From NCBI GenBank assembly GCA_019421345.1, contig JAHZFL010000003.1, positions 209,799 to 273,798 of the forward strand: a stretch of 64,000 bases of DNA. Reading direction: 5' to 3'. The notes under the pieces are model-generated. The model searched no databases and was not told the DNA's origin. It worked only from the letters and a program-made list of their open reading frames with translations. Of this stretch, positions 39,291 to 51,762 are shown piece by piece. The stretch is from Roseburia sp. (GTDB lineage: Bacteria; Bacillota; Clostridia; Lachnospirales; Lachnospiraceae). The position numbers and the translations under genes were made by a program. The number at the start of each line of letters is the position of its first letter. Within the stretch, counting starts at the first letter, position 1.

Positions 39291-40000
39291 CGCTGACACT
39301 CCTTTAACAGACGATAACCGATCCCGCGCACGGTTAAAAGCCAGACCGGATGGGAAGGGTCTGGCTCGATCTTTTCCCTCAGATGGCGGATATGTACCAT
39401 CAATGTGTTCTCATATCCATAATAATCATCGTTCCAGACTGCCCGTGTCAGGGCGTCAAAGGTCACCACATTGCCGCGATTTGCCGCAAGCTTTTTTAGC
39501 AGGAGCAGCTCCTTTGCCGTAAGCATCGTGGTCGTCCCTTCACATGTGACAGTCGCATTTTTTAAGGAAACCTCCCTGCCGGAGAGGTTTAACGTTTCAT
39601 CCGCTTCCGCCTCCTGGCCGCGAAAATAGGAACGTGTCAAAATCGCGTTGACACGGAGCACGAGCTCCTGCGGCAAAAACGGCTTTGTGATATAGTCATC
39701 CGCTCCAAGCCCCAGCCCGAACAGTCTGTCATTGTCCTCATCCTTCGCCGATAAAAACAAAATCGGGACGGCGGACACCTCGCGCATCCGCCGGAATAAG
39801 GTATAGCCGTCGCCGTCAGGAAGCATGATGTCCAAAATCACAAGCTTTGGCGTCTCCCGCAAAAACACCTCTATGCCCTCTTTACAGCTCCCTGCCGTAT
39901 AGACGGTCTCGTAGCCGCTCTTTCTTAAAATATCGCAGGTCATGCCTGCAAGCTTTTCATTGTCATCCACCAGAAGGATGCTGCAATTATATAAATTCAT
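39287..40000 (-). CDS. OmpR-family response regulator
   Basis: Start set at MNLYNCSILLVDD (AAGGAG 9 nt upstream). Receiver domain (DIMLPDGDG). Winged-helix C-terminus (LTAKELLLLKKLAANRG..., VRGIGYRL). Confidence 0.85.
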   Translation of the reverse strand: MNLYNCSILLVDDNEKLAGMTCDILRKSGYETVYTAGSCKEGIEVFLRETPKLVILDIMLPDGDGYTLFRRMREVSAVPILFLSAKDEDNDRLFGLGLGADDYITKPFLPQELVLRVNAILTRSYFRGQEAEADETLNLSGREVSLKNATVTCEGTTTMLTAKELLLLKKLAANRGNVVTFDALTRAVWNDDYYGYENTLMVHIRHLREKIEPDPSHPVWLLTVRGIGYRLLKECQR

Positions 40001-40172
40001 GGTACGGATTCTCCTTTTTTCACTCCCAATATACCTTATTTTTATCCGCAATGCCAGAGCCCTGCCCCAAAACTTAAGGAAAAAATAAGGCGGCTTTCAG
40101 TCTGCTTTAAGCCTGTGCCCTTAGGATAGACATATGCCGAAACGGCAAAAGAAAAAACGGAGGGTAACTGCC

Positions 40173-41084
40173 ATGAAAAATATGATAGAAACACATGCGC
40201 TCACAAAGCAATACAAAAAACAGCGTGTCGTCTCAGAGCTGGACTTAGCTGTTCCGGAGGGCTGTATCTACGGCTTCCTCGGACCAAACGGCGCGGGAAA
40301 ATCCACTACCATGAAAATGATCCTGGGACTGGTCAAGCCAACCGGCGGTCAGATCCGCGTGCTCGGGCAAAACGCAGACGCGAAAAACCGGATTGCCCTG
40401 CTGCGCTCCACCGGCTCGCTCATTGAATCTCCCGCCTTCTACGGTCACCTGACCGGACGGGAAAATCTTTCCCTGATCGCAGATTTAAAGCAGACCGGGA
40501 AAAAGGAGGTCGACGAGGTGCTTCGCACCGTCCGCCTGACAGACGCACAGCACAAAAAAGCATCCCGCTACTCACTCGGCATGAAACAGCGGCTTGGCTT
40601 TGCCGCAGCGCTGCTCGGTCATCCAAAGCTTTTGCTCTTAGACGAGCCGACGAACGGTCTTGATCCTGCCGGTATTCAGGAGATGCGTGAACTCATCCGC
40701 CGTCTCTGCGAGCAGCACGGAATCACCGTTTTTGTATCGAGCCATCTGCTCTCGGAGATCGACCAGATGGCAAACCATGTGGGCATCATCAATCACGGCG
40801 TTTTGATCTTTCAGGACCGCCTGTCGGCGCTCCACGAGCACAGCCGCGCGCGGATGCTGCTTCGCACGACGGAGGATGAAACGGCACTTCGCATCCTAAA
40901 GCAGGCAGCGCTTCCATGCACCTCCACGCACGGCGGACTTTACTTAAATACGGCGAAAGAAGCGGATATTCTGCGTGCCGGAACGCTTCTTTTTTCCAAT
41001 GGACTTGGCATCCTTTCACTTGCCGAGGAGCAAAAGAGCCTGGAAGACATCTTTCTTGAACTCACCGGAAGGAGCGTGATGTAA
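40173..41084 (+). CDS. ABC transporter ATP-binding subunit, lantibiotic-protection (NisF/MutF/SpaF) type
   Basis: Walker A GPNGAGKST, signature LGMKQRL and Walker B LLLLDEPTNGLD. It is followed by two ~250-aa ABC-2 permease genes. Confidence 0.75.
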   Translation: MKNMIETHALTKQYKKQRVVSELDLAVPEGCIYGFLGPNGAGKSTTMKMILGLVKPTGGQIRVLGQNADAKNRIALLRSTGSLIESPAFYGHLTGRENLSLIADLKQTGKKEVDEVLRTVRLTDAQHKKASRYSLGMKQRLGFAAALLGHPKLLLLDEPTNGLDPAGIQEMRELIRRLCEQHGITVFVSSHLLSEIDQMANHVGIINHGVLIFQDRLSALHEHSRARMLLRTTEDETALRILKQAALPCTSTHGGLYLNTAKEADILRAGTLLFSNGLGILSLAEEQKSLEDIFLELTGRSVM

Positions 41085-41834
41085 ATGACCGGTCTTTTTG
41101 TGGAACTAAAAAAAGGACGGCACAAAAGGCTCTGGCTCGTCCCTTTAGTCTTTCTTATCGTTTTATTTTTATGGTCTGCCTATACCTATCAGAATGCAGC
41201 GACGGAGGATCTTGCAGCCGGCTACACAAAAATGTTTTATCAGCTTCCTCTGATGAATACGATGCTTATGCCCGTATTGCTTTCAGTGCTTGCCAGCCGT
41301 CTCTGCGACATGGAGATCAAAGGACAGACGCTAAAGCTGCTCTATACCTTGCAGCAAAAAGGCAGCTTTTATGACCTCAAATTTGTACACGAAGGTTTTT
41401 ATCTGCTGCTGTTTACCATTGGGGAATGTCTGCTGTTTCCGCTGGCGGGAAGGCTCTATCATTTTACCGAGCCGCTCTCCCTGCCGCTGCTGCTTCGACA
41501 CGGCGTGGCGCTGTTTCTTGCCGGAGCCGTCATCCTGATTTTACAGCACATTCTCTCGCTCCTTTGCGAAAACCAGATCGCTCCGCTTTTTATCGGGCTT
41601 GCAGGCGCTTTTATCGGACTGTTTTCGATGTTTTTCCCGCCTGCTCTCACACGGATTCTTCCGTGGAGCTATTTTGGCGCGTTCCTCCCCTATCGGATGG
41701 AATACGACCCTGCCACAAGGATCATGAGCTTTTATGAGCTGCCGTTTCCCATTGCCCTGTTTCTCGGCTATATGTTTTTTGGCGTTGCCTTGTATCTCAT
41801 TTGCCGCAGTATTTTTCTCAAAAAGGAGGTTTGA
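41085..41834 (+). CDS. ABC-2 permease, MutE/EpiE-like lantibiotic immunity subunit
   Basis: 249 aa with six hydrophobic helices. Its start abuts the ATPase stop (TAAATG). Confidence 0.6.
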   Translation: MTGLFVELKKGRHKRLWLVPLVFLIVLFLWSAYTYQNAATEDLAAGYTKMFYQLPLMNTMLMPVLLSVLASRLCDMEIKGQTLKLLYTLQQKGSFYDLKFVHEGFYLLLFTIGECLLFPLAGRLYHFTEPLSLPLLLRHGVALFLAGAVILILQHILSLLCENQIAPLFIGLAGAFIGLFSMFFPPALTRILPWSYFGAFLPYRMEYDPATRIMSFYELPFPIALFLGYMFFGVALYLICRSIFLKKEV

Positions 41835-41837
41835 CCT

Positions 41838-42584
41838 ATGACATTTTTATGTATTCGGGCGGAAGCCGCAAAGCTGCGCCGCTCCATCATCTGGCTCGCG
41901 TGTCTGCTGCTACCGATAATCCCCGCCATCATGGGTGTCTTTAATTACCAGAGTAATCTTGGAATTCTGACTAACGGCTGGTACTCGCTCTGGTCGCAGG
42001 TGACACTTTTTTACAGCAATTTCTTCTATGCGCCTCTCATAGCGCTCTATGCCGCCTATCTCTGGCGTATGGAGCACATGGACCACAACTGGAATGTCCT
42101 GATGACAGTTCCCGTCGGGGTGAGTGATATTTTCTTCGGAAAGCTTGCAGTGATCTTGTTTGTCACAGTGCTGACCCAGATGATCATTTTCATATTTTAC
42201 TTCATCGGCGGGAAATTCTGCGGTCTTTCCGGTCTGCCACCTGCCGAAATATTCTTCTGGCTGCTGCGCGGCTCGCTCGCCGGGACGGCTATCGGTTCTC
42301 TGCAGCTTCTGCTCTCTATGTGCATCCAAAGCTTTGCACTTCCGATCGGCATCGCACTGCTTGGGAGCGTTATGGGACTTGTGATCTCCGGTTTTCATGC
42401 CGGCGAAATCAGTCTCGGTCTGTACTGGCCATATTCTCTGATGCTGATGGGCATGAACGCAAACCGCGATACCGATACGCTTGCCGGAAACAGTCTGCCG
42501 TTTGTCGGATGCGTCGTACTGTTCTTTTTGCTGTTCACATGGATTGCCGTTCACAGGTTAAAAACGAGGGATGTGCAGGCATAG
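41838..42584 (+). CDS. ABC-2 permease, MutG-like lantibiotic immunity subunit
   Basis: 248 aa with six hydrophobic helices. 3-nt gap to the preceding permease. Confidence 0.6.
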   Translation: MTFLCIRAEAAKLRRSIIWLACLLLPIIPAIMGVFNYQSNLGILTNGWYSLWSQVTLFYSNFFYAPLIALYAAYLWRMEHMDHNWNVLMTVPVGVSDIFFGKLAVILFVTVLTQMIIFIFYFIGGKFCGLSGLPPAEIFFWLLRGSLAGTAIGSLQLLLSMCIQSFALPIGIALLGSVMGLVISGFHAGEISLGLYWPYSLMLMGMNANRDTDTLAGNSLPFVGCVVLFFLLFTWIAVHRLKTRDVQA

Positions 42585-42623
42585 CAGCATCCCCAAAAGA
42601 CTATGCTTAGCAAATCTTCCCTT

Positions 42624-42672
42624 GTAAAAATACCGTGCAAAAATTCCTCCCTTTGGGTTTCTGCACGGTATT
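42624..42672 (-). terminator. Terminator of the RiPP operon (11-bp stem AATACCGTGCA/TGCACGGTATT, then T-run on the minus strand)
   Basis: Perfect inverted repeat 42629-42639 / 42662-42672. The minus strand reads TGCACGGTATTTTTAC. It lies between convergent operons. Confidence 0.65.
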
Positions 42673-42707
42673 ACCAGATCCAATGCACTATGTGATTATA
42701 CCGATTT

Positions 42708-44531
42708 TTATGATCCGTTTATTTGCACCCCATACTTTTCCGCTTGAAGATTGTACATTTTCTTGTAAAGACCATCCTTACGAATCAATGAAGCATGCGT
42801 CCCATCTTCTACGATCTTACCATCCTCTAATACAAGAATTCGGTTCATCAATTTTACATGGGACAGACGGTGGGAAATCATGACGCATATATTATGCTCC
42901 CCGATCTCCATCAACATTTGCAAGATCGTTTCTTCTGTCTCCGAATCCAATGCCATCGTAGGCTCGTCAAAAACATAGATAGGAGAATTTTTAAAAAGAA
43001 CGCGCAACATAGCAAGACACTGCCCCTGACCACCGGATGGAGATACATATTTTGATGATAACGCGGGTGTCAGAAAGGTATTTTCTTTTGCTTCCAACAT
43101 GGAAATCCATGCTTCCAGATTGGATACAGAAAATAACTCTTTGACCCGCTCCTTTTCCTGTGGACTTATTTGTTCTTCTGCCTTACCTGCAATATTTTCT
43201 AAAATGGTAACCGGCAGCAACCCATAATCCTGAAATAGCGCTGCGATAAATTCCTGATGCTCATCCGCATCCATTTCTTGAATGTCTTTTCCATCGAGCA
43301 GTATTTGTCCTGACTGCGGTGCATAGAATTTGCAAAGCAGTTTTACTATTGTACTCTTTCCTGCTCCATTCATTCCGACAATCCCTACCTTTTCTCCAGA
43401 AGAAATTGAAAAACTCACATTTTTAAGCGCCGGTATCGTTTTCTGCGGATAAGTAAATGTCACATCATTAAATTCCAGTGTATGTATGGATTCTAACTTT
43501 CTTGTATGTGAAATGCTTGGCTCACAATGTTTTTCGATAATTGAAAAAAAAGAATCTAACAGAGCATCAAATTTTTTTACCATGTTTATTTCAACGATAA
43601 TCTCGTTACACGCTGTGCTGACAGCACAAATTGCGCTAAATAAAAGTACAAAATCTTCCACCGAAAGCTTTTGCATGGAACGAAAGCCAATAAAAACAGA
43701 AAATACGACTATCTGAAACTGAATCAAAAATTTTACAAAGCCAAGATATAAGCCTTTTTTTGCAAAAGCCTTCTGATTTGTCAAATAAATCTTATCCATT
43801 AAGACACTGCAATGCTTCATAATGAGCGAGTCTCCTTGATATACCCGAAGATCTTCCCCATACCGAAAATCGGAAATCAATTTACAATACCATCCAAATG
43901 CTCTGTTTTCAGGCAAGAGACGCTTTGCATTATCCAGTTCTATTTTTGTTACATAACGATATAATGGTTTGAGAAAAAGAAGACTTATAACAGGAATAAG
44001 TAAATATTTCCAATCATAGACAGCGATAATTAAACCATTAAGGGTCATGGCTGCTATGGAGGAACCAAGTTTTTCCATGCTGGCTGACAATGCCGGAAGT
44101 TGCCATATTCCATATTTTGCACCTTGTGTCAATTCCATATTCTCAGAGGTAATAAATTCATCATAAGAAAGATCACTTTGTGAAATTCCAAGGTCTTCAT
44201 ATGCCTGACGGTATAGCTTGCCGGATTTTATTCTAAGCTTTTCGCGCAGTCGTGAGGCAATCATTTTTAGAATGAAATACATCATCTGAAATAAAATTGT
44301 GAAGATTACGATCTTCCATAGAGAATCATGATAGGTACTGACAATCATGACTAAGCTTCTGGGAATATATACCGCTGCAACAGATACGGCTGCATTCATG
44401 ACAATGGTCGCCAAGCAAAGCTCCGTCCACCGAAGCTTTTTCTCTATTGTATAATCAATAAACCGCAAGATATTATTTTTGCTGTTTTCAGCCTTCCTCA
44501 TATCTCTTTTTTTGCCCAATATACATTTCAT
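42708..44531 (-). CDS. ABC exporter half-transporter (TMD-NBD), partner 2
   Basis: 607 aa, with an N-terminal 6-TM domain. Walker A GMNGAGKST, degenerate signature SGGQGQ and Walker B IYVFDEPT. No N-terminal C39 peptidase domain. The start could be Met11 (44501). Confidence 0.8.
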   Translation of the reverse strand: MKCILGKKRDMRKAENSKNNILRFIDYTIEKKLRWTELCLATIVMNAAVSVAAVYIPRSLVMIVSTYHDSLWKIVIFTILFQMMYFILKMIASRLREKLRIKSGKLYRQAYEDLGISQSDLSYDEFITSENMELTQGAKYGIWQLPALSASMEKLGSSIAAMTLNGLIIAVYDWKYLLIPVISLLFLKPLYRYVTKIELDNAKRLLPENRAFGWYCKLISDFRYGEDLRVYQGDSLIMKHCSVLMDKIYLTNQKAFAKKGLYLGFVKFLIQFQIVVFSVFIGFRSMQKLSVEDFVLLFSAICAVSTACNEIIVEINMVKKFDALLDSFFSIIEKHCEPSISHTRKLESIHTLEFNDVTFTYPQKTIPALKNVSFSISSGEKVGIVGMNGAGKSTIVKLLCKFYAPQSGQILLDGKDIQEMDADEHQEFIAALFQDYGLLPVTILENIAGKAEEQISPQEKERVKELFSVSNLEAWISMLEAKENTFLTPALSSKYVSPSGGQGQCLAMLRVLFKNSPIYVFDEPTMALDSETEETILQMLMEIGEHNICVMISHRLSHVKLMNRILVLEDGKIVEDGTHASLIRKDGLYKKMYNLQAEKYGVQINGS

Positions 44532-46260
44532 AATATTGACCTTTCAGTTCCATAAGCTGTATATGTGTTCCGTTTTCTATGATTCTTCCCTTTTCCAATA
44601 AAATGATCCGATCGCAGAATCCAATAAATGAAAGCTGGTGAGAAACAATGATACTGGTGGAATTCTTGGTGATTTCCGAATAATTATGGTACAGTTCTTC
44701 TTCTGCAATTGCATCAATTGCGCCAGCAGGTTCGTCCAAAAGAAAAATTCTTCCGTTACGATAAATGGCACGAGCGAGCAGCAGCTTCTGACGTTCTCCA
44801 CCGGAAATATTTACTCCTTCTGAATTCATAATATTGGAAATTACCGTATTTCCTTTCTTTGGAAGTTTGTCTTCCGTGGCGTAAAAACCTGATAACTGCA
44901 TTGCTTTACAATATCGCTCCAAATCGGTATCTTCCGATAACGATACATTATCATAAATAGAAAAGGGGAAAATATTTCCGGTCTGTAAAACAACACTTAA
45001 TTGTTGATAATACTGTTCCGGAGGAATTTTTTTGATATCAACACCATTAAGCTTAATACATCCAAATTGTGGTTCATACAGCCGACATATTAATTTTATA
45101 ATAGTACTTTTTCCTGCTCCGTTCATACCAATGATAGCAGTTCTTTTCCCAGGTAGAATCACAAAAGATAAGTCATGAATCGTTGGCTTGTCTGAATCAG
45201 GATAGGAAAAGGTCACATGATCAAACTCCAGACTAAGAGGCTGACTGCTCATATCCTCAAACTTCGTATCCAGATATACTGGTTTTTCAGATTGCTCGAT
45301 TTCATCGATAATTTTCCAATAATCAGAGAAACGCTTTGCTTCTTTTTGGATTTTCGTGTTACTGTAAAAAATAGACTGTATTGCATTGCCCAACTGCAAG
45401 ACGCCCAGCACATAAGTCAAGAATGAACCAATGGGGAGATGCCCGGAGACAATACCGGTTGCAAGCCAGACATACACCACAACATCTCTCAAAAATTCAT
45501 TTATCAAAAGAAACATTTGATAATTCCATTTTTCTTTCTGCTTCTTAATCATAATCCCATGAATTACAGCAGAGTAATTTTTCCCATAACTGTGCAGCAG
45601 ATTTTTCAAAGAAAAAATCCTTATATCCTTTGCATAGCATTCTTCCATCAAAAGATCGTACACTTTTTCATGATTTCTGCTAAGAGGAGTAGTTTCCTGC
45701 CATTCTTCTTCGTCCTTTTTCTCTATCAGCACAGTGATACGAAACGAAATGAATACGGTAACAAGCAAAAATATCCCTAACAATGCAGACATTCTGCTTA
45801 TGATTCCAAACATACCAATGGATGTCAGAATTGCCGCCGGTAATTGATAGATTTCATTCATCATACTTCCAATTCCTATGGATGGATTCATAGAAGCTTC
45901 TCTTGCTTTCTCCAAACGACTTAAAAACTCAGAATTGATACTTTTGGAAAAAGGAATACGAATAGAAGACTTTATCAGATCTAAAAGGACAGAATATCTC
46001 ACTCGCTGCATCCGCATCCATCCGGCATTGCTCAACCAGGTACTTAGGAATAATGCAAAGGCTGCAAGTAAACCAAGAAGGCTGCCCAAAAGCAACCCCC
46101 TTTTATCCGTAACCAATATTGAATTGCAGATTGTTTCCGGCAGTAATACCCATAAGGTTTGAAATACAAACAGGCTGATGGAATAGATGATCCAATTTAA
46201 AATAAGAAATTTGTTAATCTGACAGGTTTTAGAAAGAATCAAGTTTAGTGTCCTTTTCAT
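44488..46260 (-). CDS. ABC exporter half-transporter (TMD-NBD), partner 1
   Basis: Start set at MKRTLNLIL (GAGGGGGG upstream). Walker A GMNGAGKST, signature SGGERQ and Walker B IFLLDEPA. No C39 domain. Confidence 0.8.
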   Translation of the reverse strand: MKRTLNLILSKTCQINKFLILNWIIYSISLFVFQTLWVLLPETICNSILVTDKRGLLLGSLLGLLAAFALFLSTWLSNAGWMRMQRVRYSVLLDLIKSSIRIPFSKSINSEFLSRLEKAREASMNPSIGIGSMMNEIYQLPAAILTSIGMFGIISRMSALLGIFLLVTVFISFRITVLIEKKDEEEWQETTPLSRNHEKVYDLLMEECYAKDIRIFSLKNLLHSYGKNYSAVIHGIMIKKQKEKWNYQMFLLINEFLRDVVVYVWLATGIVSGHLPIGSFLTYVLGVLQLGNAIQSIFYSNTKIQKEAKRFSDYWKIIDEIEQSEKPVYLDTKFEDMSSQPLSLEFDHVTFSYPDSDKPTIHDLSFVILPGKRTAIIGMNGAGKSTIIKLICRLYEPQFGCIKLNGVDIKKIPPEQYYQQLSVVLQTGNIFPFSIYDNVSLSEDTDLERYCKAMQLSGFYATEDKLPKKGNTVISNIMNSEGVNISGGERQKLLLARAIYRNGRIFLLDEPAGAIDAIAEEELYHNYSEITKNSTSIIVSHQLSFIGFCDRIILLEKGRIIENGTHIQLMELKGQYYEMYIGQKKRYEEG

Positions 46261-46271
46261 ATATCCCCCCT

Positions 46272-47288
46272 CTATGGCAAAGTGTATAAATCCGATCTTC
46301 CGATGTATGTCAATTTTCCGCACCTATTCGTTTCTCTTAATTTTCGTATTGTTTTTTTCGTTCTCTTTTCCAAACAATTTAGACATCCAGATACTTCCAT
46401 TAACATATCTTCATAAGAAGAAGACTCTAATATTGGCTTGGCGGCATCCAAGTTACCTTCATAATATTCAAGAACATGTGAAATAAACACTCGCGCGAAT
46501 AAATATGCATAATCTTTATTAAGTAAGAAAAATTTTTCACAGCAATCATACAGAGAAAGCTCAAAAAAATCATCATTGATTGTATAGCCACGAATTAAAT
46601 CATCATAATATTCTGCAATACCTTCTTCTATAAATTTTAATTTTATAGACAAATTATAGTTACTAATTATATGAGTAAGTTCATGACCAGCATCATCATT
46701 TACATTTACATGAATTGTACATAACGCAGTATTTGCATAACTTAATCTATTTCCTATATCATCGACCCAACCTAAGAATACATAAATATCAATACTTTTC
46801 TTGCATTTATTCGGTAAATATTTTGTTATTCTATAGTATGCATCCAAATACTTTCCAATAAATTGCTTCTTCATTTCTAATCCCAATTCATTTGAAAAAT
46901 GAAAATTCATCTTTTGTCGATTTACAAAATCAAATTTAGTTAATTTCAAAGTCAACAACCACTCAAGTGCAAAATCAGAATATTCACCGTTCTGCTTTAC
47001 TGATATTAATAAATTTGATTTTGCTTCATCATATTGTCCGCTACCGAAGGCAACCAAACCCTTGTATCCGAATATTTTACTAGAATCTTCCCATAAAAAT
47101 AAGTCTTCATTATATATATTAACAATTCGTGAAAATTCATCCCAATTTCCTGTCTCGAACAACGCATATATCAGATATCTGACCTCACATATTTCATACA
47201 TAAGGTACATATCAAAAATCTTACTATAATCTTTTTTCTCGTAATATTCTTTAAGTTTACTATCATACTTTTTAAAATTATTTTCCAT
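46272..47288 (-). CDS. HExxH metallopeptidase-like protein (MA-clan type) with helical-repeat N-terminal half; candidate leader peptidase
   Basis: 338 aa. GHELTHII (HExxH) is followed 17 residues later by EEGIAEYY, a candidate third-ligand Glu as in the gluzincin / Peptidase_MA_2 pattern. No signal peptide. 4-nt gap to the maturase gene. Confidence 0.55.
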   Translation of the reverse strand: MENNFKKYDSKLKEYYEKKDYSKIFDMYLMYEICEVRYLIYALFETGNWDEFSRIVNIYNEDLFLWEDSSKIFGYKGLVAFGSGQYDEAKSNLLISVKQNGEYSDFALEWLLTLKLTKFDFVNRQKMNFHFSNELGLEMKKQFIGKYLDAYYRITKYLPNKCKKSIDIYVFLGWVDDIGNRLSYANTALCTIHVNVNDDAGHELTHIISNYNLSIKLKFIEEGIAEYYDDLIRGYTINDDFFELSLYDCCEKFFLLNKDYAYLFARVFISHVLEYYEGNLDAAKPILESSSYEDMLMEVSGCLNCLEKRTKKTIRKLRETNRCGKLTYIGRSDLYTLP

Positions 47289-47292
47289 ATTC

Positions 47293-48570
47293 CTACTTTT
47301 TATAAAAAAAAGGCAACGACGTTAAGTTAAACTCTGAACATAATCTTTGCTTGTACTCATTCGATATGCAATATGCAATACAACCACCAAGACAATCAGG
47401 CAACTGAGAACAATTTAAACATTTCTGCTCACCAAAACAATTAGCTGCCTTATACCAGTTAACTAATTGTTCTGAATCCAACTGCATTGTTCCATCCTCC
47501 AAAATTTTTCCAACTTTTCCCCATTTATTATTAGGATCCTTAATATTAAGACATTTCCAAAATGACAAATCTGAAGTAATATAGCCAAAATCTGCATCCG
47601 AACAAGCTTCGCAAGATCTAGCAAAATATTGATTATACATTATACCATATCCGATAGACTCTGCGTAAGAAAGCAATTCAAAATAGTCACTTTCTGAATT
47701 AGAATTATCCCCTTCAAAGCATGACGTATCATAAATTTTTCTAAAAAAAACGCTGATTTTTTCTCGATATTGAGGACAAATCAAATTAAGACTTTCTTTT
47801 ACATCTTGAATTTCAGCATTTAGCAAATTAAATCTAAGAGTGAAATTATAATTCCAAAGTCTAAGATATGGTGCCACAATATCATTAATTACATGAATTA
47901 AATAATCAAAACTTCCTCTACCATCCTTAAACTTACGGGTTGAATCATGAGTGCGTTTACAACCATCCAATGTAATTTGAAGTGAATTACAATTATGTTT
48001 TTTTAATGATTCCATAATATCTGACGTCAAAAGAGATCCATTTGTAATGATAGAACATGTATAACAAAAACCATGTTTTTTTGAAAGTTCTGATACATAC
48101 TCCAAATAACCCAGCATTTCATCAAAAAATAGCAATGGTTCTCCGCCGAACATATTTATATCAATATGCTTATAAAATTTAAAATTCTTTTCAGCATATT
48201 TTTTCAAAGTAGGAAAATAATCAGGATTGATAGAACTATCACGATAAGGTTCTTCAAAGCAATATGGGCACGAAAAATTGCACGCCATTGAAGGCATTAA
48301 TGCAATACTTAGGGTATCTCGATTAAAATAACTTTTATTAAAAATGTATTGAAACTCCGCCACCTCATCTTTTTGATCTTCCACTACAAAACCATTTTGT
48401 ATAAGATCAATATATTTTTCCTCATTAATGCTCTTAGTATTCAACTCGCTTACTGCCTTCTCAATTGTTGAAGCCTCACGAACTTTCAGAAAAGCTTTTG
48501 TTAACGAATTATAGATAATGACTTTTTCACCAAATTTTCTAACAGAATTAAAACGACTTTGTTTATACAT
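47293..48570 (-). CDS. Radical SAM / SPASM-domain peptide maturase
   Basis: 425 aa. CNFSCPYC (CxxxCxxC) lies about 100 aa from the N-terminus, leaving room for an RRE-like domain. GGEPLL is present. C-terminal CLNCSQLPDCLGGC (Cx2Cx5Cx3C) plus extra Cys residues forms a SPASM auxiliary-cluster pattern. RBS AGGGGG. Confidence 0.8.
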   Translation of the reverse strand: MYKQSRFNSVRKFGEKVIIYNSLTKAFLKVREASTIEKAVSELNTKSINEEKYIDLIQNGFVVEDQKDEVAEFQYIFNKSYFNRDTLSIALMPSMACNFSCPYCFEEPYRDSSINPDYFPTLKKYAEKNFKFYKHIDINMFGGEPLLFFDEMLGYLEYVSELSKKHGFCYTCSIITNGSLLTSDIMESLKKHNCNSLQITLDGCKRTHDSTRKFKDGRGSFDYLIHVINDIVAPYLRLWNYNFTLRFNLLNAEIQDVKESLNLICPQYREKISVFFRKIYDTSCFEGDNSNSESDYFELLSYAESIGYGIMYNQYFARSCEACSDADFGYITSDLSFWKCLNIKDPNNKWGKVGKILEDGTMQLDSEQLVNWYKAANCFGEQKCLNCSQLPDCLGGCIAYCISNEYKQRLCSEFNLTSLPFFYKK

Positions 48571-48603
48571 ATATGCCCCCTATTATATTTTTGTAAAATA
48601 TAT

Positions 48604-48661
48604 ATCCCCTTGTTGTTTTAGTGTTGTACATTTATTGAAACACCTCATACACCAAGGGGAT
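48604..48661 (-). promoter_or_regulatory. Intercistronic hairpin between precursor and maturase genes (candidate attenuator or processing site)
   Basis: On the minus strand: ATCCCCTTG...(inner GTGTT/AACAC pairing)...CAAGGGGAT, followed by ATATATTTT. The outer 9-bp stem is perfect (48604-48612 / 48653-48661). Confidence 0.45.
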
Positions 48662-48689
48662 TTTCACCGTATAATACGTCAACTACATA

Positions 48690-48869
48690 TTAATATTTAT
48701 AAATTAGGGGACCACCTCCTCCACAATTACCTGTACAAGTACACGCATCTAGTAAAGAAATAAATTTGGATTTACCCACATTAGAAGCGACTGTTTCAAT
48801 TACTTGTTTTGTTGAAAAAGATGCTTTTTTGATTACTTCGTATTCTTTCTTTTTACTAAAGTCTTTCAT
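48690..48869 (-). CDS. Unannotated 59-aa Cys-rich RiPP precursor peptide
   Basis: Hand translation: MKDFSKKKEYEVIKKASFSTKQVIETVASNVGKSKFISLLDACTCTGNCGGGGPLIYKY*. The RBS GAAAGGAG ends about 6 nt before the ATG. It lies directly upstream of the rSAM/SPASM gene. It is 59 aa, so below the 60-aa ORF-track threshold. Confidence 0.7.
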   Translation of the reverse strand: MKDFSKKKEYEVIKKASFSTKQVIETVASNVGKSKFISLLDACTCTGNCGGGGPLIYKY

Positions 48870-48911
48870 GATGGTCTCCTTTCAATTAAAAAAATTTTGT
48901 ACTTATAGCAA

Positions 48912-48940
48912 AGTATATACAATAGTAGTTTCATTGTCAA
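48912..48940 (-). promoter_or_regulatory. Sigma-70-type promoter of the RiPP operon (TTGACA-17nt-TATACT)
   Basis: On the minus strand, TTGACA is at 48940-48935 and TATACT at 48917-48912 with 17-nt spacing. An A/T-rich UP-like tract lies upstream. The -10 hexamer ends about 43 nt before the precursor ATG. Confidence 0.55.
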
Positions 48941-50075
48941 GAAAATTTTTGTATTTTATTACTAATTGATATTGTAAAAGTATAGTGATGTTGTAACATA
49001 ATTTTTTACAACCCTACTTCACGCATTTATAAAAAATATACAGAAAAGAGATTTGAAAATGGTGCAAAAAAGTTTATGACAAAAAATCCAAAGTTCAGCC
49101 TTTGAAAATTAGTATAAAGATGGGGTTTGAAGATGAAGAAAGAACTGACCATTAATAAAATACTCTCGGCGGCTGGAATAGGCATGCATAAGTTATCTGA
49201 TTGGATTTGGGAACTGGTACTTAGATACCGATTAACCACTATGAGTGTTACAGAATACTCGTTTAAACTAGGAAAAGGAGTCTCTAGACGAGACAAGCGC
49301 TTTTTTGTCGCCGGCGTTCAGAAGTCTGATGTTAATATAACTAGTGTCCGGATAATGATTATGTTATCTAACCAAAATCCAAATAAACTTAGTTTTGAGT
49401 AATCCCAGATTTTTTCTCTGGCATCTTCTGTTTTTAAAGTACCAGTTAACTGTTTTGGAACTTGAATTTCATGTCATACTTCTATGCATCTAGTTCTTTG
49501 TTGAAACATTACAGATTCCCTACCCTCCTGAAAAGGTAGGTTCGGTTCACTGAATAAATTTAAAAAAATTCAATTCCAGCATCGTTAGCTAGACTTTATG
49601 TTAAAAAAGAATTTTTTACTGCAGTTTTTAATTTTCACTTTTGATTCGAAAGTTTTTCTCATGAAATCGCAATCATTTAGGTCTATAGATTGTTTTTATC
49701 ATTCTTTGTTAAAGTGGCTGTGCGATTGTAGATTCTGGCTTTTGATTCTCTATACAAAGCGGCAACACTTTTTTAAGAGTTGCCTCCTTCTATACTAAGA
49801 CAAACTAGTTATAAATCATCGAACAGAAAAATCAACTTTCCAATACCTTTATTATGCTCTGTATAATGCATCTAAATATGTTTATCTATATAACCTACTC
49901 CTACTATAATCTCCACACATTTATATTTGCACAATGTACTAATGATCTACTGATCTCTCTTACGTCTTCTTTAATTTTGCCATATAGTATCATCTTCCGG
50001 TATTTCGGTATGAATACTATGTAGTATTGGCATTTCCAACAAGTATGTGACATGCTTTTATTGTCTATCCGAACC

Positions 50076-50134
50076 AACTGCTATGTTATATTGAGTTTGG
50101 CTTACAACGCCATTCTCAATATAACATAGCAGTT
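50076..50134. repeat. Perfect 20-bp inverted repeat (AACTGCTATGTTATATTGAG / CTCAATATAACATAGCAGTT), 19-nt spacer
   Basis: Read directly from the sequence. It lies in the non-coding AT-rich tail of the island and is followed by TTTCTT on the plus strand. Confidence 0.8.
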
Positions 50135-50451
50135 TTCTTATTGATACCCTCACTGTTTCCACCTACACTATTCTACCCAGCATAGTTATGCGAATAGTCT
50201 TTTCCTTTAACTTTGAATTTAAATATTTCCTTTGAAAGCGCCTAAAAAGCTACTCTTTTATCATACAGCTTTCAAAATTCCAAAAATTATCCCTGATTTT
50301 TTCTATCTAATATGCATTTTTTAAATTTATTAAAAAAGCTAATTTTTGACTTAATTTAATAGTTAGTCTCTCTTTTTAAAGAGCTTTTCGTATATGAAAT
50401 ACAGTAAAACATGTTCTATAAAACCTCTAAATCCCGACTCTCACACGGCAT

Positions 50452-51762
50452 TTACCAGATCGACGCAACGGCAACCTCAAGCACCTTATCAAGCGGTGCG
50501 CGCGCCCGTCCGTTTCCGTCTGTTCCTTCAAAATATTTTCGGCTCGCAGACTCAAAAATAACATAAATATGTTCATCTGCGATCGCAATCTGTTCCGCAC
50601 ACGGCGGCATCTCTACATTCATGGTCGGCTCATTCGGACTCTGCGTCAAGGTCAGCAGCGACGCGTACACCTTCAAATAAGAGGAATTATTCCGCCCGTA
50701 AGATGTACTCAGATAGACCGTTCCGTCTGCGTCAAAGGCAATGCCCTGCACCTTGCTGGGAATCCGAAAGCTGTTTACGGAGGAAAGCTGATTGCTTTTT
50801 TCATCGTAGCTGTAAGAACGCATCTGGGAATCCAAAATCTTCGTATGAGTCGCTACCCAGATTCTTCCTCCATAGCAGGTAATGCTTGACGGTATGTTTT
50901 TGAGGCGATACTCATCCGTCATTTCCGAAATGTCGACACAGCGGCGGTCGGATCTTTTTGCCATAGATCGGATGGTAGTATATGGAATGCGTTCCAACGT
51001 CTTAGCGCTTGAATGGCAGACCCAAACATTGTCTCCGTCAAAGGCAATGCCGCCGAGATGACTGTCCTCCCTCATGCGGAGCGTCACGAGATATTCTCCG
51101 CTGCTGCGGTCAAATACCATCAAAGAACCGCTGCTTTGTGCCTCCTCTGCATAGGCGGTCATCAGGATATAGTCAGGCGTAAAGCAAAGTCCCTGCATAC
51201 ACTGTGCATCGCTGCTGATCATAGCCTCAAGATAATCACGCTCTCTCGTGGATGGCATACCCGGAATAACAAGATCGTCTAAAAAGTCATACTGACAGTC
51301 TCTTAATTCCTTATGATTTCTTCCCTCAATCGCACCCGACCGATAGGTGTACATCTCAACATTATAATAATTATCAATTTCCTTGGTCCACTTTGCAAAA
51401 AGGACCATATTTTTAGCAATGCTCTGATCGATCCGTGTGATCTTGTCTGTACATGCACGATCAGTATACCATCCCGCAAAATTATAGCCCTCGCGCTCCG
51501 GAATGCTTAAAGTGTACGGCAGATCCTCCTTTGCAATGATAAACGGATTCTTATTTCCCGTTCCGCCGTTTAATGCATAGGCAAGATGTATCTCCTCCAA
51601 GTCCGCAAAAGAGATGGCGGTCTTTTTTACCATATCCATATTTTCCAGCTTATTCATTGCCTCCGTTCGAATTTCCAGCGCATAAACCCGAAGCATCTGC
51701 GGCTCATTGAAAAGGAGGGTAAATACAAATATTACAAGAAATAGTTTTCTGTGCAAGCTCAT
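50452..51762 (-). CDS. Secreted hypothetical protein with InlB-B/Flg_new-type repeat and repeat-rich C-domain
   Basis: 436 aa with a signal/anchor helix. EGYNFAGWYTDRACTDKI...VLFAKW matches the Listeria-Bacteroides repeat pattern. Recurring GIAFDxDxxV(W/Y) segments suggest a beta-propeller-like fold. Confidence 0.45.
   Translation of the reverse strand: MSLHRKLFLVIFVFTLLFNEPQMLRVYALEIRTEAMNKLENMDMVKKTAISFADLEEIHLAYALNGGTGNKNPFIIAKEDLPYTLSIPEREGYNFAGWYTDRACTDKITRIDQSIAKNMVLFAKWTKEIDNYYNVEMYTYRSGAIEGRNHKELRDCQYDFLDDLVIPGMPSTRERDYLEAMISSDAQCMQGLCFTPDYILMTAYAEEAQSSGSLMVFDRSSGEYLVTLRMREDSHLGGIAFDGDNVWVCHSSAKTLERIPYTTIRSMAKRSDRRCVDISEMTDEYRLKNIPSSITCYGGRIWVATHTKILDSQMRSYSYDEKSNQLSSVNSFRIPSKVQGIAFDADGTVYLSTSYGRNNSSYLKVYASLLTLTQSPNEPTMNVEMPPCAEQIAIADEHIYVIFESASRKYFEGTDGNGRARAPLDKVLEVAVASIW

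What the first reader, a model, noticed from the sequence alone, without database searches (positions are those of the whole stretch)
48690..48869. Hidden 59-aa precursor ORF (below the ORF-track cut-off) with a three-Cys core followed by a Gly4 turn and an aromatic tail
Reverse-complementing 48869-48690 by hand gives MKDFSKKKEYEVIKKASFSTKQVIETVASNVGKSKFISLLDA-CTCTGNCGGGGPLIYKY.
- The RBS GAAAGGAG is correctly spaced, and the promoter -10 ends about 43 nt upstream of the ATG.
- The leader is about 42 aa, Lys-rich and probably helical. All three Cys residues (43, 45, 49) sit in a C-terminal 17-mer.
- The layout is Cys donors on the N-terminal side, a flexible GGGG turn, then P-L-I-Y-K-Y as possible acceptors. 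This is what a small nested sactionine hairpin would need.
- The C-T-C-T-G-N context would equally suit non-alpha (ranthipeptide-type) thioethers to Thr or Asn.
- The Y-K-Y tail could alternatively be a cyclophane (triceptide-like) site, so the chemistry is open.
- The two plus-strand ORFs listed in the track over this interval are antisense shadows.
Basis: seen in the sequence. Interest (0 to 1): 0.85.

Follow-up and report, generated by a model that had tools for sequence, protein, structure and literature searches.

The report
Precursor gene of undescribed radical-SAM peptide

Summary
Window 48869..48690 (-) encodes MKDF...LLDACTCTGNCGGGGPLIYKY, with an 11/12 sigma-70-like promoter and a GAAAGGAG ribosome-binding site. 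It starts a five-gene minus-strand operon: precursor, radical SAM/SPASM maturase, a TPR plus HExxH metallopeptidase, and two ABC permease/ATPases. The operon lies on a 34% GC island in a 48% GC genome.

The ORF is under purifying selection (differences by codon position 3/2/20 against a relative). A small ORF carrying D-A-C-x-C-T-G/E-N occurs in 75 of 78 loci whose maturase is at least 35% identical, and in 3 of 93 more distant loci.

Across 65 distinct precursors, D, A, C, C, T and N are invariant and a further Cys follows in 64. The tail after Asn runs from 0 to 23 residues and cannot be aligned, even between close relatives.

The likely modification site is D41-C49. The maturase's nearest characterised relative is the thioether-forming CteB, but it passes no curated family cut-off, so the chemistry remains inferred.

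This is an undescribed family of a known kind, radical-SAM-modified ribosomal peptides. Interest is moderate. The same peptide/enzyme pair also occurs without exporters, next to kinase, phosphatase and helicase genes.

The parts
48912..48940 (-). Sigma-70-like promoter: TTGACA (48940-48935), 17-nt spacer, TATACT (48917-48912). The transcript is predicted to start near 48905.
   Evidence: 11 of 12 matches, the best site in 42000-50500. In a 3.3 Mb contig of the same species, homology to the window begins at 48967, just upstream of this site. Function is inferred, not shown.
48876..48883 (-). Ribosome-binding site GAAAGGAG, 6 nt before the ATG.
   Evidence: Read directly from the sequence.
48690..48869 (-). 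Precursor peptide gene (59 aa plus stop). Leader is M1-L40 (48869-48750), with the family leader motif E-V-I-K-K-A at residues 11-16. Conserved core is D41-A-C-T-C-T-G-N-C49 (48749-48723). Variable tail is G50-Y59 (48722-48693).
   Evidence: translation; codon-position bias; homologous precursors; position-by-position conservation; co-occurrence with the maturase; called and conserved in same-species assemblies.
48604..48661 (-). Long hairpin in the 119-nt spacer between the precursor gene and the maturase gene. The arms are AUCCCCUUG and CAAGGGGAU, followed by AUAUAUUUUAC. It is a candidate partial terminator or transcript-stabilising structure.
   Evidence: minimum free energy -30.9 kcal/mol against -20.0 +/- 2.8 for shuffles, z = -3.8, and 0 of 200 shuffles fold as well. 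Strong hairpins also sit in this spacer in L083, L087, L098, L015 and L111, but they do not align. The role is inferred.
47293..48570 (-). Radical SAM/SPASM peptide maturase (425 aa). It has an N-terminal domain resembling a peptide-recognition (RRE) domain (about residues 1-81), the motif C97-x3-C101-x2-C104, and SPASM cysteines C320, C323, C340, C384-x2-C387-x5-C393-x3-C397 and C411.
   Evidence: Pfam Radical_SAM and Fer4_12; best NCBIfam CefB at 184 bits against a cut-off of 600. (invariant Cys). (best solved-structure sequence match is CteB, profile E 5e-23). (AlphaFold2 pLDDT 86.9; Foldseek best match CteB, E 2e-17, TM 0.62-0.64).
46272..47288 (-). 338-aa protein with N-terminal TPR-like helices and a metallopeptidase domain carrying H202-E-L-T-H206 and E222-G-I-A-E226. 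Proposed leader (and perhaps tail) peptidase. No signal peptide is evident by eye.
   Evidence: only 6 homologous clusters among 5.8 billion proteins; invariant DDxGHELxHI and EGxAE; weak TPR hits, and one member hits Peptidase_M9 at E 0.003; pLDDT 86.3, with top Foldseek matches to the peptidase domains of M9 collagenases (ColG E 1.4e-4, ColH, ColT), then the M1 enzymes LTA4H and IRAP; present next to the maturase only in loci with the long-leader precursor type.
44488..46323 (-). ABC permease/ATPase 1. The ORF is 611 aa from a GTG, but gene callers start it 21 codons later, at 46260 (590 aa). It has no C39 peptidase domain.
42708..44531 (-). ABC permease/ATPase 2 (607 aa), overlapping the end of the first. 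Together they are a probable heterodimeric exporter.
   Evidence: The same gene pair follows the maturase in related loci.
42708..50451 (.). Low-GC island carrying the operon and about 1.5 kb of upstream non-coding or remnant sequence.
   Evidence: GC is 34.2% (42708-48940) and 31.4% (48941-50451), against 48-51% in the flanks.

Best explanation
The ORF encodes the precursor of a ribosomally made, radical-SAM-modified peptide and starts a five-gene operon.

Proposed sequence of events:
1. A strong promoter drives the small gene. A hairpin after it probably lets the precursor message outnumber the enzyme message.
2. The leader (residues 1-40, with the motif hydrophobic-hydrophobic-K/N-x-A shared across the family) docks on the N-terminal recognition domain of the radical SAM/SPASM enzyme.
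3. The enzyme modifies the invariant segment D41-A-C-T-C-T-G-N-C49. The most likely modification is one to three intramolecular thioether bridges, from the three cysteines to carbons of invariant neighbours. D41, T46 and N48 are the acceptor residue types known from ranthipeptides.
4. The cytoplasmic TPR-metallopeptidase removes the leader.
5. The two ABC half-transporters export the product.
6. The G50-Y59 tail is a lineage-specific appendage. It is either trimmed or kept as a variable 'address', and is not the cross-link acceptor.

Shown here: the gene is real and selected, its pairing with this enzyme clade, which residues are invariant, and the enzyme's cofactor motifs and nearest relatives.

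Inferred: the thioether chemistry and its positions, the protease's role, export, the hairpin's role, and the biological activity.

Rough sub-probabilities:
- genuine precursor of the adjacent enzyme: 0.93
- modification lies within D41-C49: 0.8
- thioether chemistry: 0.55
- the 338-aa protein is the leader peptidase: 0.6
- export by the ABC pair: 0.75
For: Sequence signals:
- ORF, ribosome-binding site and promoter as described.

Selection:
- Substitutions by codon position are 3/2/20, 7/2/19 and 12/5/25 against relatives.
- One synonymous change and no amino-acid change in six same-species assemblies.

Pairing with the enzyme:
- The motif DAC.CT[GE]N is found in 75 of 78 loci with a maturase at least 35% identical and more than 250 nt of upstream sequence.
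- It is found in 3 of 93 loci below 35%. The median distance from motif to maturase start is 124 nt.
- It occurs only once in the whole window.

Core:
- D, A, C, C, T and N are invariant in 65 of 65 distinct precursors, and G in 64 of 65.
- A further Cys follows Asn in 64 of 65.

Enzyme:
- CxxxCxxC and a full set of SPASM cysteines are invariant in 30 homologues.
- The best curated-model hits are maturases of Cys-rich peptides: CefB 184 bits, TIGR04463 165, Clo7bot 136, PapB 93, CcpM 83 and the SCIFF maturase 72.
- The best solved relative by sequence and by fold is the thioether-forming CteB. SkfB is also hit.

Peptidase:
- Invariant HExxH plus EGxAE, and a fold matching the gluzincin clan of zinc metallopeptidases.
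- It co-occurs with long-leader precursors and ABC pairs.
- The ABC proteins lack a C39 peptidase domain.

Regulation in relatives:
- Related clusters sit beside agr-like or RNPP quorum-sensing regulator genes, as expected for secreted peptides.
Against: - No transcript, peptide or mass data exist for this locus.
- The maturase is far below the cut-off of every curated family, so its chemistry cannot be transferred with confidence.
- Three of the six active-site-proximal positions that Precord et al. (PMC10288494) use to sort thioether synthases differ from CteB. The window has F, F, I, T, L, N against CteB's F, F, T, S, H, Q. I read these from the alignment, and could not compare them with sactisynthases.
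- The same peptide/enzyme pair also occurs with no exporter or peptidase, next to kinase, phosphatase and helicase genes. That sits awkwardly with a simple 'secreted bacteriocin' picture.
- An eight-residue core invariant from Bacilli to archaeal MAGs is unusual for antimicrobial peptides.
- Some strains of the same species carry an insertion sequence inside this gene, so the cluster is dispensable.
- The hairpin lacks a clean U-tract.
Confidence: 0.6

Rival explanations
1. Different radical chemistry on the same conserved core. The enzyme would do something other than thioether formation on D-A-C-x-C-T-G-N(-C). Examples are a C-C or C-O cross-link involving Thr or Asn, Cys oxidation as done by sulfatase-maturating enzymes, epimerisation, or conversion of the octapeptide into a compact cofactor-, metal-binding- or signal-like product. 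The rest of the pathway (leader binding, proteolysis, export) would be as in the main explanation.
For: - The maturase passes no curated family cut-off.
- Its fold also matches TigE (cyclopropyl synthase family), anSME and SuiB at E about 1e-13.
- An invariant core across phyla and across very different gene contexts is more typical of a fixed scaffold than of a toxin.
- Type B loci add a kinase and a phosphatase that could act on the invariant Thr.
Against: - The nearest curated models and the nearest solved structure are all maturases of Cys-rich peptides or known thioether formers.
- Three cysteines are conserved, as expected for sulfur donors.
Confidence: 0.25
2. One reading: a nested sactionine hairpin. 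C43, C45 and C49 would be bridged across the G50-G53 turn to alpha-carbons in P54-Y59.
For: - The layout exists in this sequence.
- A few other family members also carry Gly-rich tails with hydrophobic or aromatic ends: CNGGGGNLISIM, CCGGGGGKGKL, CGGGDRTIDSLM and CGDAGDYIY.
- Some sactisynthases tolerate acceptor variation (general knowledge).
Against: - Tails are 0-23 residues long and cannot be aligned. 13 of 65 precursors end within two residues of Asn.
- Relatives with maturases 59-68% identical have unrelated tails without Gly runs.
- The invariant residues are all upstream of position 50.
- The maturase scores 58 bits on the RumMC sactisynthase model, against a cut-off of 720.
Confidence: 0.08
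3. A three-residue cyclophane (triceptide-like) cross-link on Y57-K58-Y59.
For: An aromatic-x-x triplet is present at the C-terminus.
Against: - The triplet is absent from nearly all family members.
- The cyclophane-forming maturase models YhhB, GrrM/OscB and FxsB score 51, 37 and 33 bits, against cut-offs of 445, 310 and 370. These scores are well below those of the Cys-peptide maturase models.
Confidence: 0.03
4. A chance or dead ORF: not translated, or part of a decaying, silent acquired island.
For: - Small ORFs are common in this AT-rich stretch.
- The island is foreign by composition.
- Some strains have insertion sequences in and around the gene, and split ABC genes.
Against: - Strong purifying selection in this frame.
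- An intact promoter, ribosome-binding site and all five genes in the window.
- The motif is conserved in 75 of 78 related loci.
Confidence: 0.04

Closest known systems
SCIFF/thermocellin system: CteA precursor with the radical SAM/SPASM thioether synthase CteB (PDB 5WGG/5WHY), a ranthipeptide pathway
   Same: - Both have a leader-bearing small Cys-rich precursor next to a recognition-domain-fused radical SAM/SPASM enzyme with two auxiliary clusters.
- CteB is the best solved relative by sequence (profile E 5e-23) and by fold (E 2e-17, TM 0.62-0.64).
- Both cores are highly conserved and contain C-T-x-x-N-like stretches (the SCIFF part is from memory).
   Different: - Only about 19% identity in the structural alignment.
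- 72 bits on the SCIFF-maturase model, against a cut-off of 425.
- Three cysteines rather than six, and a different invariant motif.
- A dedicated metallopeptidase and an ABC pair are present here.
Freyrasin/PapB and NxxC/NxxcB ranthipeptides (Cys linked to the beta-carbon of Asp or Asn)
   Same: Short-range bridges from Cys to Asp or Asn within a few residues are a plausible model for C45...N48, D41...C43 or N48-C49. The PapB model is among the better hits, at 93 bits.
   Different: - The PapB cut-off of 340 bits is not met.
- There is no repeated CxxxD or NxxC motif; the core is a single copy.
- The chemistry here is untested.
Uncharacterised NCBIfam maturase families CefB (Cys-every-fifth), TIGR04463 and Clo7bot
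   Same: These are the highest-scoring curated models (184, 166 and 136 bits, aligned over nearly the full length). All are paired with small Cys-rich peptides.
   Different: - The scores are 3-4 fold below the cut-offs of 600, 525 and 600.
- No curated precursor model matches any of seven family precursors, even at E up to 10.
- Loci at this level of similarity, such as the Clostridium botulinum locus L058 (26% identity), lack the DACxCTGN peptide.
Hairpin sactipeptides (subtilosin A, thurincin H, ruminococcin C)
   Same: Radical SAM/SPASM enzyme, Cys donors, a leader peptide and export by ABC transporters.
   Different: - There is no conserved acceptor half. The tail is dispensable across the family.
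- The RumMC model scores 58 bits against a cut-off of 720.
Gluzincin metallopeptidases (M9 collagenase peptidase domain, M1 LTA4H/aminopeptidases), as analogues of the 338-aa protein
   Same: The HExxH plus downstream Glu signature and the overall fold.
   Different: - 11-13% identity, TM only 0.41-0.46, and no Pfam or NCBIfam model passes.
- It has a TPR-like N-terminal half.
- Only 6 sequence clusters are known.

Membership tests
Radical SAM/SPASM peptide maturase with fused recognition domain (the general kind) | CxxxCxxC motif for the SAM-binding cluster | tested here: met
   C97-N-F-S-C101-P-Y-C104, invariant in 30 homologues. Pfam Radical_SAM 45 bits, above its 29.5 cut-off.
Radical SAM/SPASM peptide maturase with fused recognition domain (the general kind) | C-terminal SPASM cysteines (CX2CX5CX3C plus upstream and downstream Cys) for two auxiliary clusters | tested here: met
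   C320, C323, C340, C384-x2-C387-x5-C393-x3-C397 and C411 are all invariant. The region aligns to the CteB SPASM region.
Radical SAM/SPASM peptide maturase with fused recognition domain (the general kind) | N-terminal peptide-recognition (RRE) domain | tested here: inconclusive
   The AlphaFold2 model shows strands 2-30, helices 35-58, a strand at 62-64 and a helix at 69-81 before the barrel. Full-length alignment to RRE-bearing maturase models starts at residue 3. No dedicated RRE model was run and no leader complex was modelled.
Radical SAM/SPASM peptide maturase with fused recognition domain (the general kind) | Adjacent small precursor gene that co-varies with the enzyme clade | tested here: met
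   75 of 78 loci at 35% identity or more, against 3 of 93 below.
Sactipeptide (hairpin type) | Cys sulfur to alpha-carbon bonds | not testable with these tools
   Needs MS/NMR.
Sactipeptide (hairpin type) | Conserved acceptor region C-terminal to the Cys donors | tested here: not met
   The tail after Asn is 0-23 aa and cannot be aligned; many precursors end at C, CE, CC or GxC.
Sactipeptide (hairpin type) | Maturase matches a sactisynthase model | tested here: not met
   RumMC 58 bits against 720. SkfB is only a weak match, E 4e-4.
Ranthipeptide (SCIFF/CteB, PapB, NxxcB types) | Cys sulfur to beta- or gamma-carbon bonds | not testable with these tools
   Needs MS/NMR.
Ranthipeptide (SCIFF/CteB, PapB, NxxcB types) | Maturase passes the curated SCIFF-maturase or PapB model | tested here: not met
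   72 bits against 425, and 93 against 340. CteB is nevertheless the nearest solved structure.
Ranthipeptide (SCIFF/CteB, PapB, NxxcB types) | Core with Cys plus conserved Asp, Thr or Asn acceptors | tested here: met
   D41, T46 and N48 are invariant alongside C43 and C45. This is compatible with membership, not proof of it.
Three-residue cyclophane peptides (triceptides) | Conserved aromatic-x-x motif in the core, and a YhhB-, GrrM- or FxsB-type maturase | tested here: not met
   Y-K-Y is unique to this lineage. The models score 33-51 bits against cut-offs of 310-445.
CefB, TIGR04463 and Clo7bot maturase families | Score above the curated cut-off | tested here: not met
   184 against 600, 166 against 525, and 136 against 600.
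Gluzincin metallopeptidase (for the 338-aa protein) | HExxH plus a third-ligand Glu about 20 residues downstream | tested here: met
   H202-E-L-T-H206 and E222/E226 are invariant in 7 homologues.
Gluzincin metallopeptidase (for the 338-aa protein) | Fold similarity to solved members | tested here: met
   Top 12 Foldseek matches are M9 collagenase peptidase domains (E 1.4e-4 to 1.2e-2, probability 0.99-1.00, TM 0.40-0.46), followed by M1 enzymes. The similarity is moderate.
Gluzincin metallopeptidase (for the 338-aa protein) | Passes a curated family model (Peptidase_M9 or M1) | tested here: not met
   No Pfam or NCBIfam hit for the window protein. One homologue hits Peptidase_M9 at E 0.003.

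The most novel reading that the evidence does not exclude
D-A-C-x-C-T-G-N(-C) peptides and their dedicated radical SAM/SPASM enzyme would form a previously undescribed, deeply conserved class of ribosomal peptide. The invariant octapeptide would be turned into one fixed compact scaffold with chemistry not yet seen in sacti- or ranthipeptides. That scaffold would be used in two ways. In one it is a secreted molecule with a hypervariable C-terminal 'address' (the window type, often beside quorum-sensing genes). In the other it is an intracellular component of kinase/phosphatase/helicase operons that resemble defence or signalling systems.
Probability: 0.25. Interest if true: 0.75.

Novelty: new variant of a known kind. 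Interest (0 to 1): 0.5.

Why it matters
- The work defines the precursor family (motif, leader signature, tail behaviour). That makes more than 100 unnamed 'radical SAM protein' entries in Bacilli, Clostridia, Spirochaetes and some archaeal MAGs interpretable as peptide maturases.
- It points experiments at residues 41-49 rather than at the tail.
- An invariant nine-residue core with three Cys and Asp, Thr and Asn is a compact, tractable substrate for finding which thioether (or other) chemistry this enzyme clade performs.
- The hypervariable tail and the neighbouring quorum-sensing genes in relatives suggest strain-specific signalling or antagonism in gut communities.
- Re-use of the same module next to kinases, phosphatases and helicases hints at an intracellular role for a modified ribosomal peptide, which would be unusual.
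- The window locus by itself is nevertheless an ordinary-looking gene cluster for a radical-SAM-modified peptide.

Tried and rejected
- **Curated models.** Pfam and NCBIfam found nothing for the precursor. NCBIfam also found nothing for six relatives, even at E up to 10.
- **Word-index protein search with the precursor** found only itself and a truncated allele. The allele turned out to be an insertion-sequence disruption, not a second core type.
- **Literature.** Motif strings (CTCTGNC, CTGN with 'radical SAM', CxCTGN and others) gave nothing relevant. Names of the nearest curated families gave nothing relevant either. Three candidate papers were checked: PMC10288494 had no match in its main text, neither it nor PMC11953309 had supplementary text held, and the eight supplementary files of PMC13289728 had no match. 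The library lacks most subscription journals and all figures, so this is weak evidence of absence.
- **Active-site residues.** I tried the 'catalytic site proximity' residues of Precord et al. to separate alpha- from beta/gamma-thioether synthases. I could map the six positions onto CteB, but had no sactisynthase reference values, so the result is inconclusive.
- **Rfam** on the whole window gave no hits, so the spacer hairpin is not a known RNA family.
- **Immunity system.** I considered the neighbouring ABC-2 transporter and response regulator (39287-42584). I set this aside because their GC content is that of the host genome, not of the island.
- **Defence-system models (PADLOC).** The maturase gave only generic viperin-like radical SAM hits, and the helicases gave generic GajB-like hits.
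- **Organism identity** was not determined. The closest species-representative genome has a maturase only 43% identical.
Full report
**1. The observation**

At 59 aa it is one residue short of the default ORF cut-off.
- GAAAGGAG sits at 48883-48876, six bases before the ATG.
- A TTGACA-17-TATACT site at 48940..48912 on the minus strand is the best promoter-like match in the 8.5 kb scanned, at 11 of 12. It ends 43 nt before the ATG.
- Small ORFs are frequent here: 127 of at least 40 aa overlap an 18 kb stretch. The ORF alone therefore proves nothing, and the case rests on comparison with other sequences.

**2. Surroundings**

- The ORF heads a minus-strand operon:
  - a 425-aa radical SAM/SPASM protein (48570-47293);
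  - a 338-aa protein with no Pfam or NCBIfam match (47288-46272);
  - two ABC permease/ATPases without a C39 peptidase domain (46323-44488 and 44531-42708).
- The 119-nt spacer after the small ORF folds into a long hairpin. Its free energy is -30.9 kcal/mol, z = -3.8, and no shuffle out of 200 folds as well. Rfam has nothing in the window.
- The block 42708-50451 has 31-34% GC, against 48-51% on both sides, so it is an acquired island.
- In a 3.3 Mb contig of the same species the cluster sits in a different neighbourhood. Homology to the window starts at 48967, just before the promoter.

**3. Is it a gene?**

- Relatives whose maturase is 64-68% identical carry an upstream ORF with the same leader and core.
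- Over 40 ungapped codons, nucleotide differences fall 3/2/20, 7/2/19 and 12/5/25 on codon positions 1/2/3.
- Six other assemblies of the same species encode the identical peptide with one synonymous change. Gene callers there already call it.
- A full scan of 1.84 billion representative proteins with the peptide returned 22 hits. I retrieved 17 and all are small precursors with the same motif. Four of the remaining five are proteins of 444-1019 aa, matched in several short stretches.

**4. The family**

- The maturase has more than 120 clusters of homologues at 37% identity or above. All are unnamed or called only 'radical SAM protein'.
- I fetched 166 loci from genomes and metagenomes. A small ORF containing D-A-C-x-C-T-G/E-N is present in 75 of 78 loci with a maturase at least 35% identical and enough upstream sequence. 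It is present in only 3 of 93 loci below 35%. The median distance from motif to maturase start is 124 nt.
- In 65 distinct precursors:
  - D, A, C, C, T and N are invariant, and G is present in 64 of 65;
  - the residue between the two Cys varies (T 37, G 17, K 5, R 3, and others);
  - the position after Asn is C in 45, and otherwise G, S or D followed by a Cys within 1-3 residues;
  - 64 of 65 have a third Cys;
  - after Asn the peptide continues for 0-23 residues (median 4) with no alignable pattern.
- Close relatives of the window peptide end in KENFG, QGLM, YSNMLN, NGNYYS, YSRV, EKSTVRLD and DDIRIM.
- A few members have Gly-rich tails with hydrophobic or aromatic ends: CNGGGGNLISIM, CCGGGGGKGKL, CGGGDRTIDSLM and CGDAGDYIY. 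The window's GGGGPLIYKY is thus one of several lineage-specific tails, not a conserved acceptor segment.
- A leader signature (two hydrophobic residues, K or N, any residue, then A) recurs in all types. In the window it is E-V-I-K-K-A. This is read from the sequences.

**5. The enzyme**

- CxxxCxxC and eight SPASM-region cysteines are invariant.
- The best curated models are maturases of Cys-rich peptides: CefB 184 bits, TIGR04463 166, Clo7bot 136, geopeptide 130, PapB 93, CcpM 83 and the SCIFF maturase 72. All are far below their cut-offs.
- Cyclophane-forming models score 33-51 bits.
- The best solved relative is the thioether synthase CteB. By sequence the single-sequence E-value is 5e-15 and the profile E-value 5e-23. 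By fold, the AlphaFold2 model (pLDDT 86.9) matches at E 2e-17 and TM 0.62-0.64.
- TigE, anSME, SuiB, ChlB and SkfB follow.
- Thioether formation is therefore the most likely chemistry, but it is an inference.
- Of the six active-site-proximal positions defined on CteB (PMC10288494), the window enzyme shares or conserves three. This is my reading of the alignment, and I could not compare with sactisynthases.

**6. The 338-aa protein**

- Only six homologous clusters exist among 5.8 billion proteins.
- All keep DDxGHELxHI and EGxAE.
- The N-terminal half gives weak TPR hits, and one homologue touches Peptidase_M9.
- The model (pLDDT 86.3) matches the peptidase domains of M9 collagenases first, then M1 enzymes. 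These belong to the gluzincin clan of zinc metallopeptidases.
- The protein follows the maturase only in loci with the long-leader precursor type and an ABC pair.
- The ABC proteins lack a protease domain, so this protein is the obvious candidate leader peptidase. That role is inferred.

**7. How it most likely works**

- The leader binds the enzyme's N-terminal domain.
- The enzyme cross-links the invariant D41-C49 segment. Three Cys are the donors, and D41, T46 and N48 are the invariant residues with side chains of the kinds used as acceptors in known ranthipeptides.
- The metallopeptidase removes the leader, and the ABC pair exports the product.
- The tail is either trimmed or retained as a variable extension.
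- Related clusters lie next to agr-like modules (L083, L175) or an RNPP-type regulator (L177). This fits a secreted, density-regulated peptide.
- None of these steps has experimental support here.

**8. What argues for caution**

- The same peptide/enzyme pair occurs in at least two other conserved settings:
  - a short-leader form ending ...LLDACGCTGNGxC, in the operon precursor - maturase - PP2C phosphatase - APH-family kinase - UvrD-like helicase, often with a second helicase upstream and no transporter;
  - a form ...CLDACTCTGNCE, followed by a second radical SAM gene, with or without kinase and helicase.
- Examples also appear in MAGs labelled Nanoarchaeota and Methanothrix.
- An octapeptide kept invariant across such contexts suggests a fixed scaffold with a conserved partner, rather than a typical bacteriocin.
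- In some strains of the window's species, an insertion sequence encoding a DDE-type transposase (Pfam DDE_3) sits inside the precursor gene after ...FISLL. A second insertion sequence lies upstream. The cluster is therefore dispensable.

**9. Comparison with what is known, and novelty**

- The kind of system is known: a radical SAM/SPASM-modified ribosomal peptide with leader, protease and exporter.
- No named family fits.
  - Every curated maturase model fails its cut-off.
  - No curated precursor model matches.
  - The defining hairpin acceptor region of sactipeptides is absent.
  - The cyclophane features are absent.
- Text searches for the motif found nothing, within the limits of the library.
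- I file it as a new variant of a known kind, of moderate interest.
- The conserved core and its re-use in non-export contexts are the more interesting points.

Noticed in passing
L004, L007, L008, L011, L012, L016, L105, L108, L114-L116, L118, L120, L122, L124 (e.g. L007:3220-11176): A short-leader form of the same precursor (MKIxKVNxAKNS...LLDACGCTGNGxC) and its maturase sit in a conserved operon with a PP2C phosphatase, an APH-family kinase and one or two UvrD/PhoH-like helicases. The helicases give PADLOC GajB-like hits. There is no transporter or peptidase. L007 has a restriction-system specificity subunit nearby, and L016 lies beside TraG-like and M23 genes. This may be an intracellular or defence-like use of a modified peptide.
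   Followed up: partly
L002:7259-8500, L005, L006, L101:5245-7318, L104: A third context. The precursor ends ...CLDACTCTGNCE and is followed by the maturase and a second, different radical SAM gene. In L006, L101 and L104 an APH-family kinase and a helicase are also present.
   Followed up: partly
L081:6001-7400 and L082 (same species as the window; also L172, L173): An insertion sequence encoding a DDE-type transposase (Pfam DDE_3) is inserted inside the precursor gene right after ...FISLL. This creates the 58-aa product P0002. The severed core LDACTCTGNCGGGGPLIYKY is still readable downstream. A second element with HTH_Tnp_1 and rve transposase domains lies just upstream. These are natural knock-outs of the precursor.
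   Followed up: yes
window 42708-50451: The operon and 1.5 kb upstream have 31-34% GC, against 48-51% in the flanks. In a 3.3 Mb contig of the same species the cluster has different upstream neighbours (an MFS transporter and an HTH_3 regulator), with homology starting at window 48967. It is an acquired, relocatable island.
   Followed up: partly
L083:167-3581, L175:972-3938, L177:494-1396, L176:481-1062: Close relatives of the cluster lie next to quorum-sensing-type genes: AgrB plus a small AgrD-like ORF, a histidine kinase and a LytTR regulator in L083 and L175; an RNPP_C/HTH_3 regulator in L177; and an XRE-type regulator in L176. No such regulator lies on the island in the window.
   Followed up: no
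window 39287-42584: Convergent with the operon's end lies an OmpR-type response regulator (39287-40051, minus strand). Next to it is an ABC-2 transporter: an ATPase at 40134-41084 and two ABC2_membrane_4 permeases at 41085-42584. The layout resembles peptide-immunity transporters, but its GC is 51%, like the host genome, so it is probably unrelated to the island.
   Followed up: partly
L010, L117, L119 (Nanoarchaeota-labelled MAG and matching metagenome contigs); L013 (Methanothrix MAG): The precursor-maturase pair, with cores GLDACGCTGNGSCN and ILDACACTGNCPEN, appears on contigs binned as archaeal. L010 has an 80-aa precursor with a long N-terminal extension. This is either real cross-domain spread or a binning artefact.
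   Followed up: no
P0133; L123:2621: Two outliers in the otherwise invariant core. P0133 has C-T-E-N instead of C-T-G-N, with a 23-residue tail. The L123 precursor stops directly after C-T-G-N, so it has no third Cys.
   Followed up: no
L089-L095, L099, L128, L129: In one sub-clade the precursor (core DAC[T/K/R]CTGNCP[G/E]IC) is encoded on the opposite strand, divergent from the maturase. The cluster there has the ABC pair but no 338-aa peptidase. L090 and L178 have a group II intron reverse transcriptase next to the cluster.
   Followed up: no
window 46272-47288; L176:3173-4170; L167 and L173 ABC genes: The peptidase is the fastest-evolving gene of the operon within the species: 95% identity and a 2-aa indel, against 99-99.8% for its neighbours. 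It is split into two ORFs in L176. The first ABC gene is split in L167 and L173. This is either decay or long-read assembly error.
   Followed up: no
window 48941-50451: The AT-rich stretch upstream of the promoter holds only short ORFs without family matches (e.g. 49127-49402 on the plus strand, and 49027-49296 on the minus strand). It looks like non-coding or remnant sequence. In sister strains an insertion sequence sits here.
   Followed up: partly
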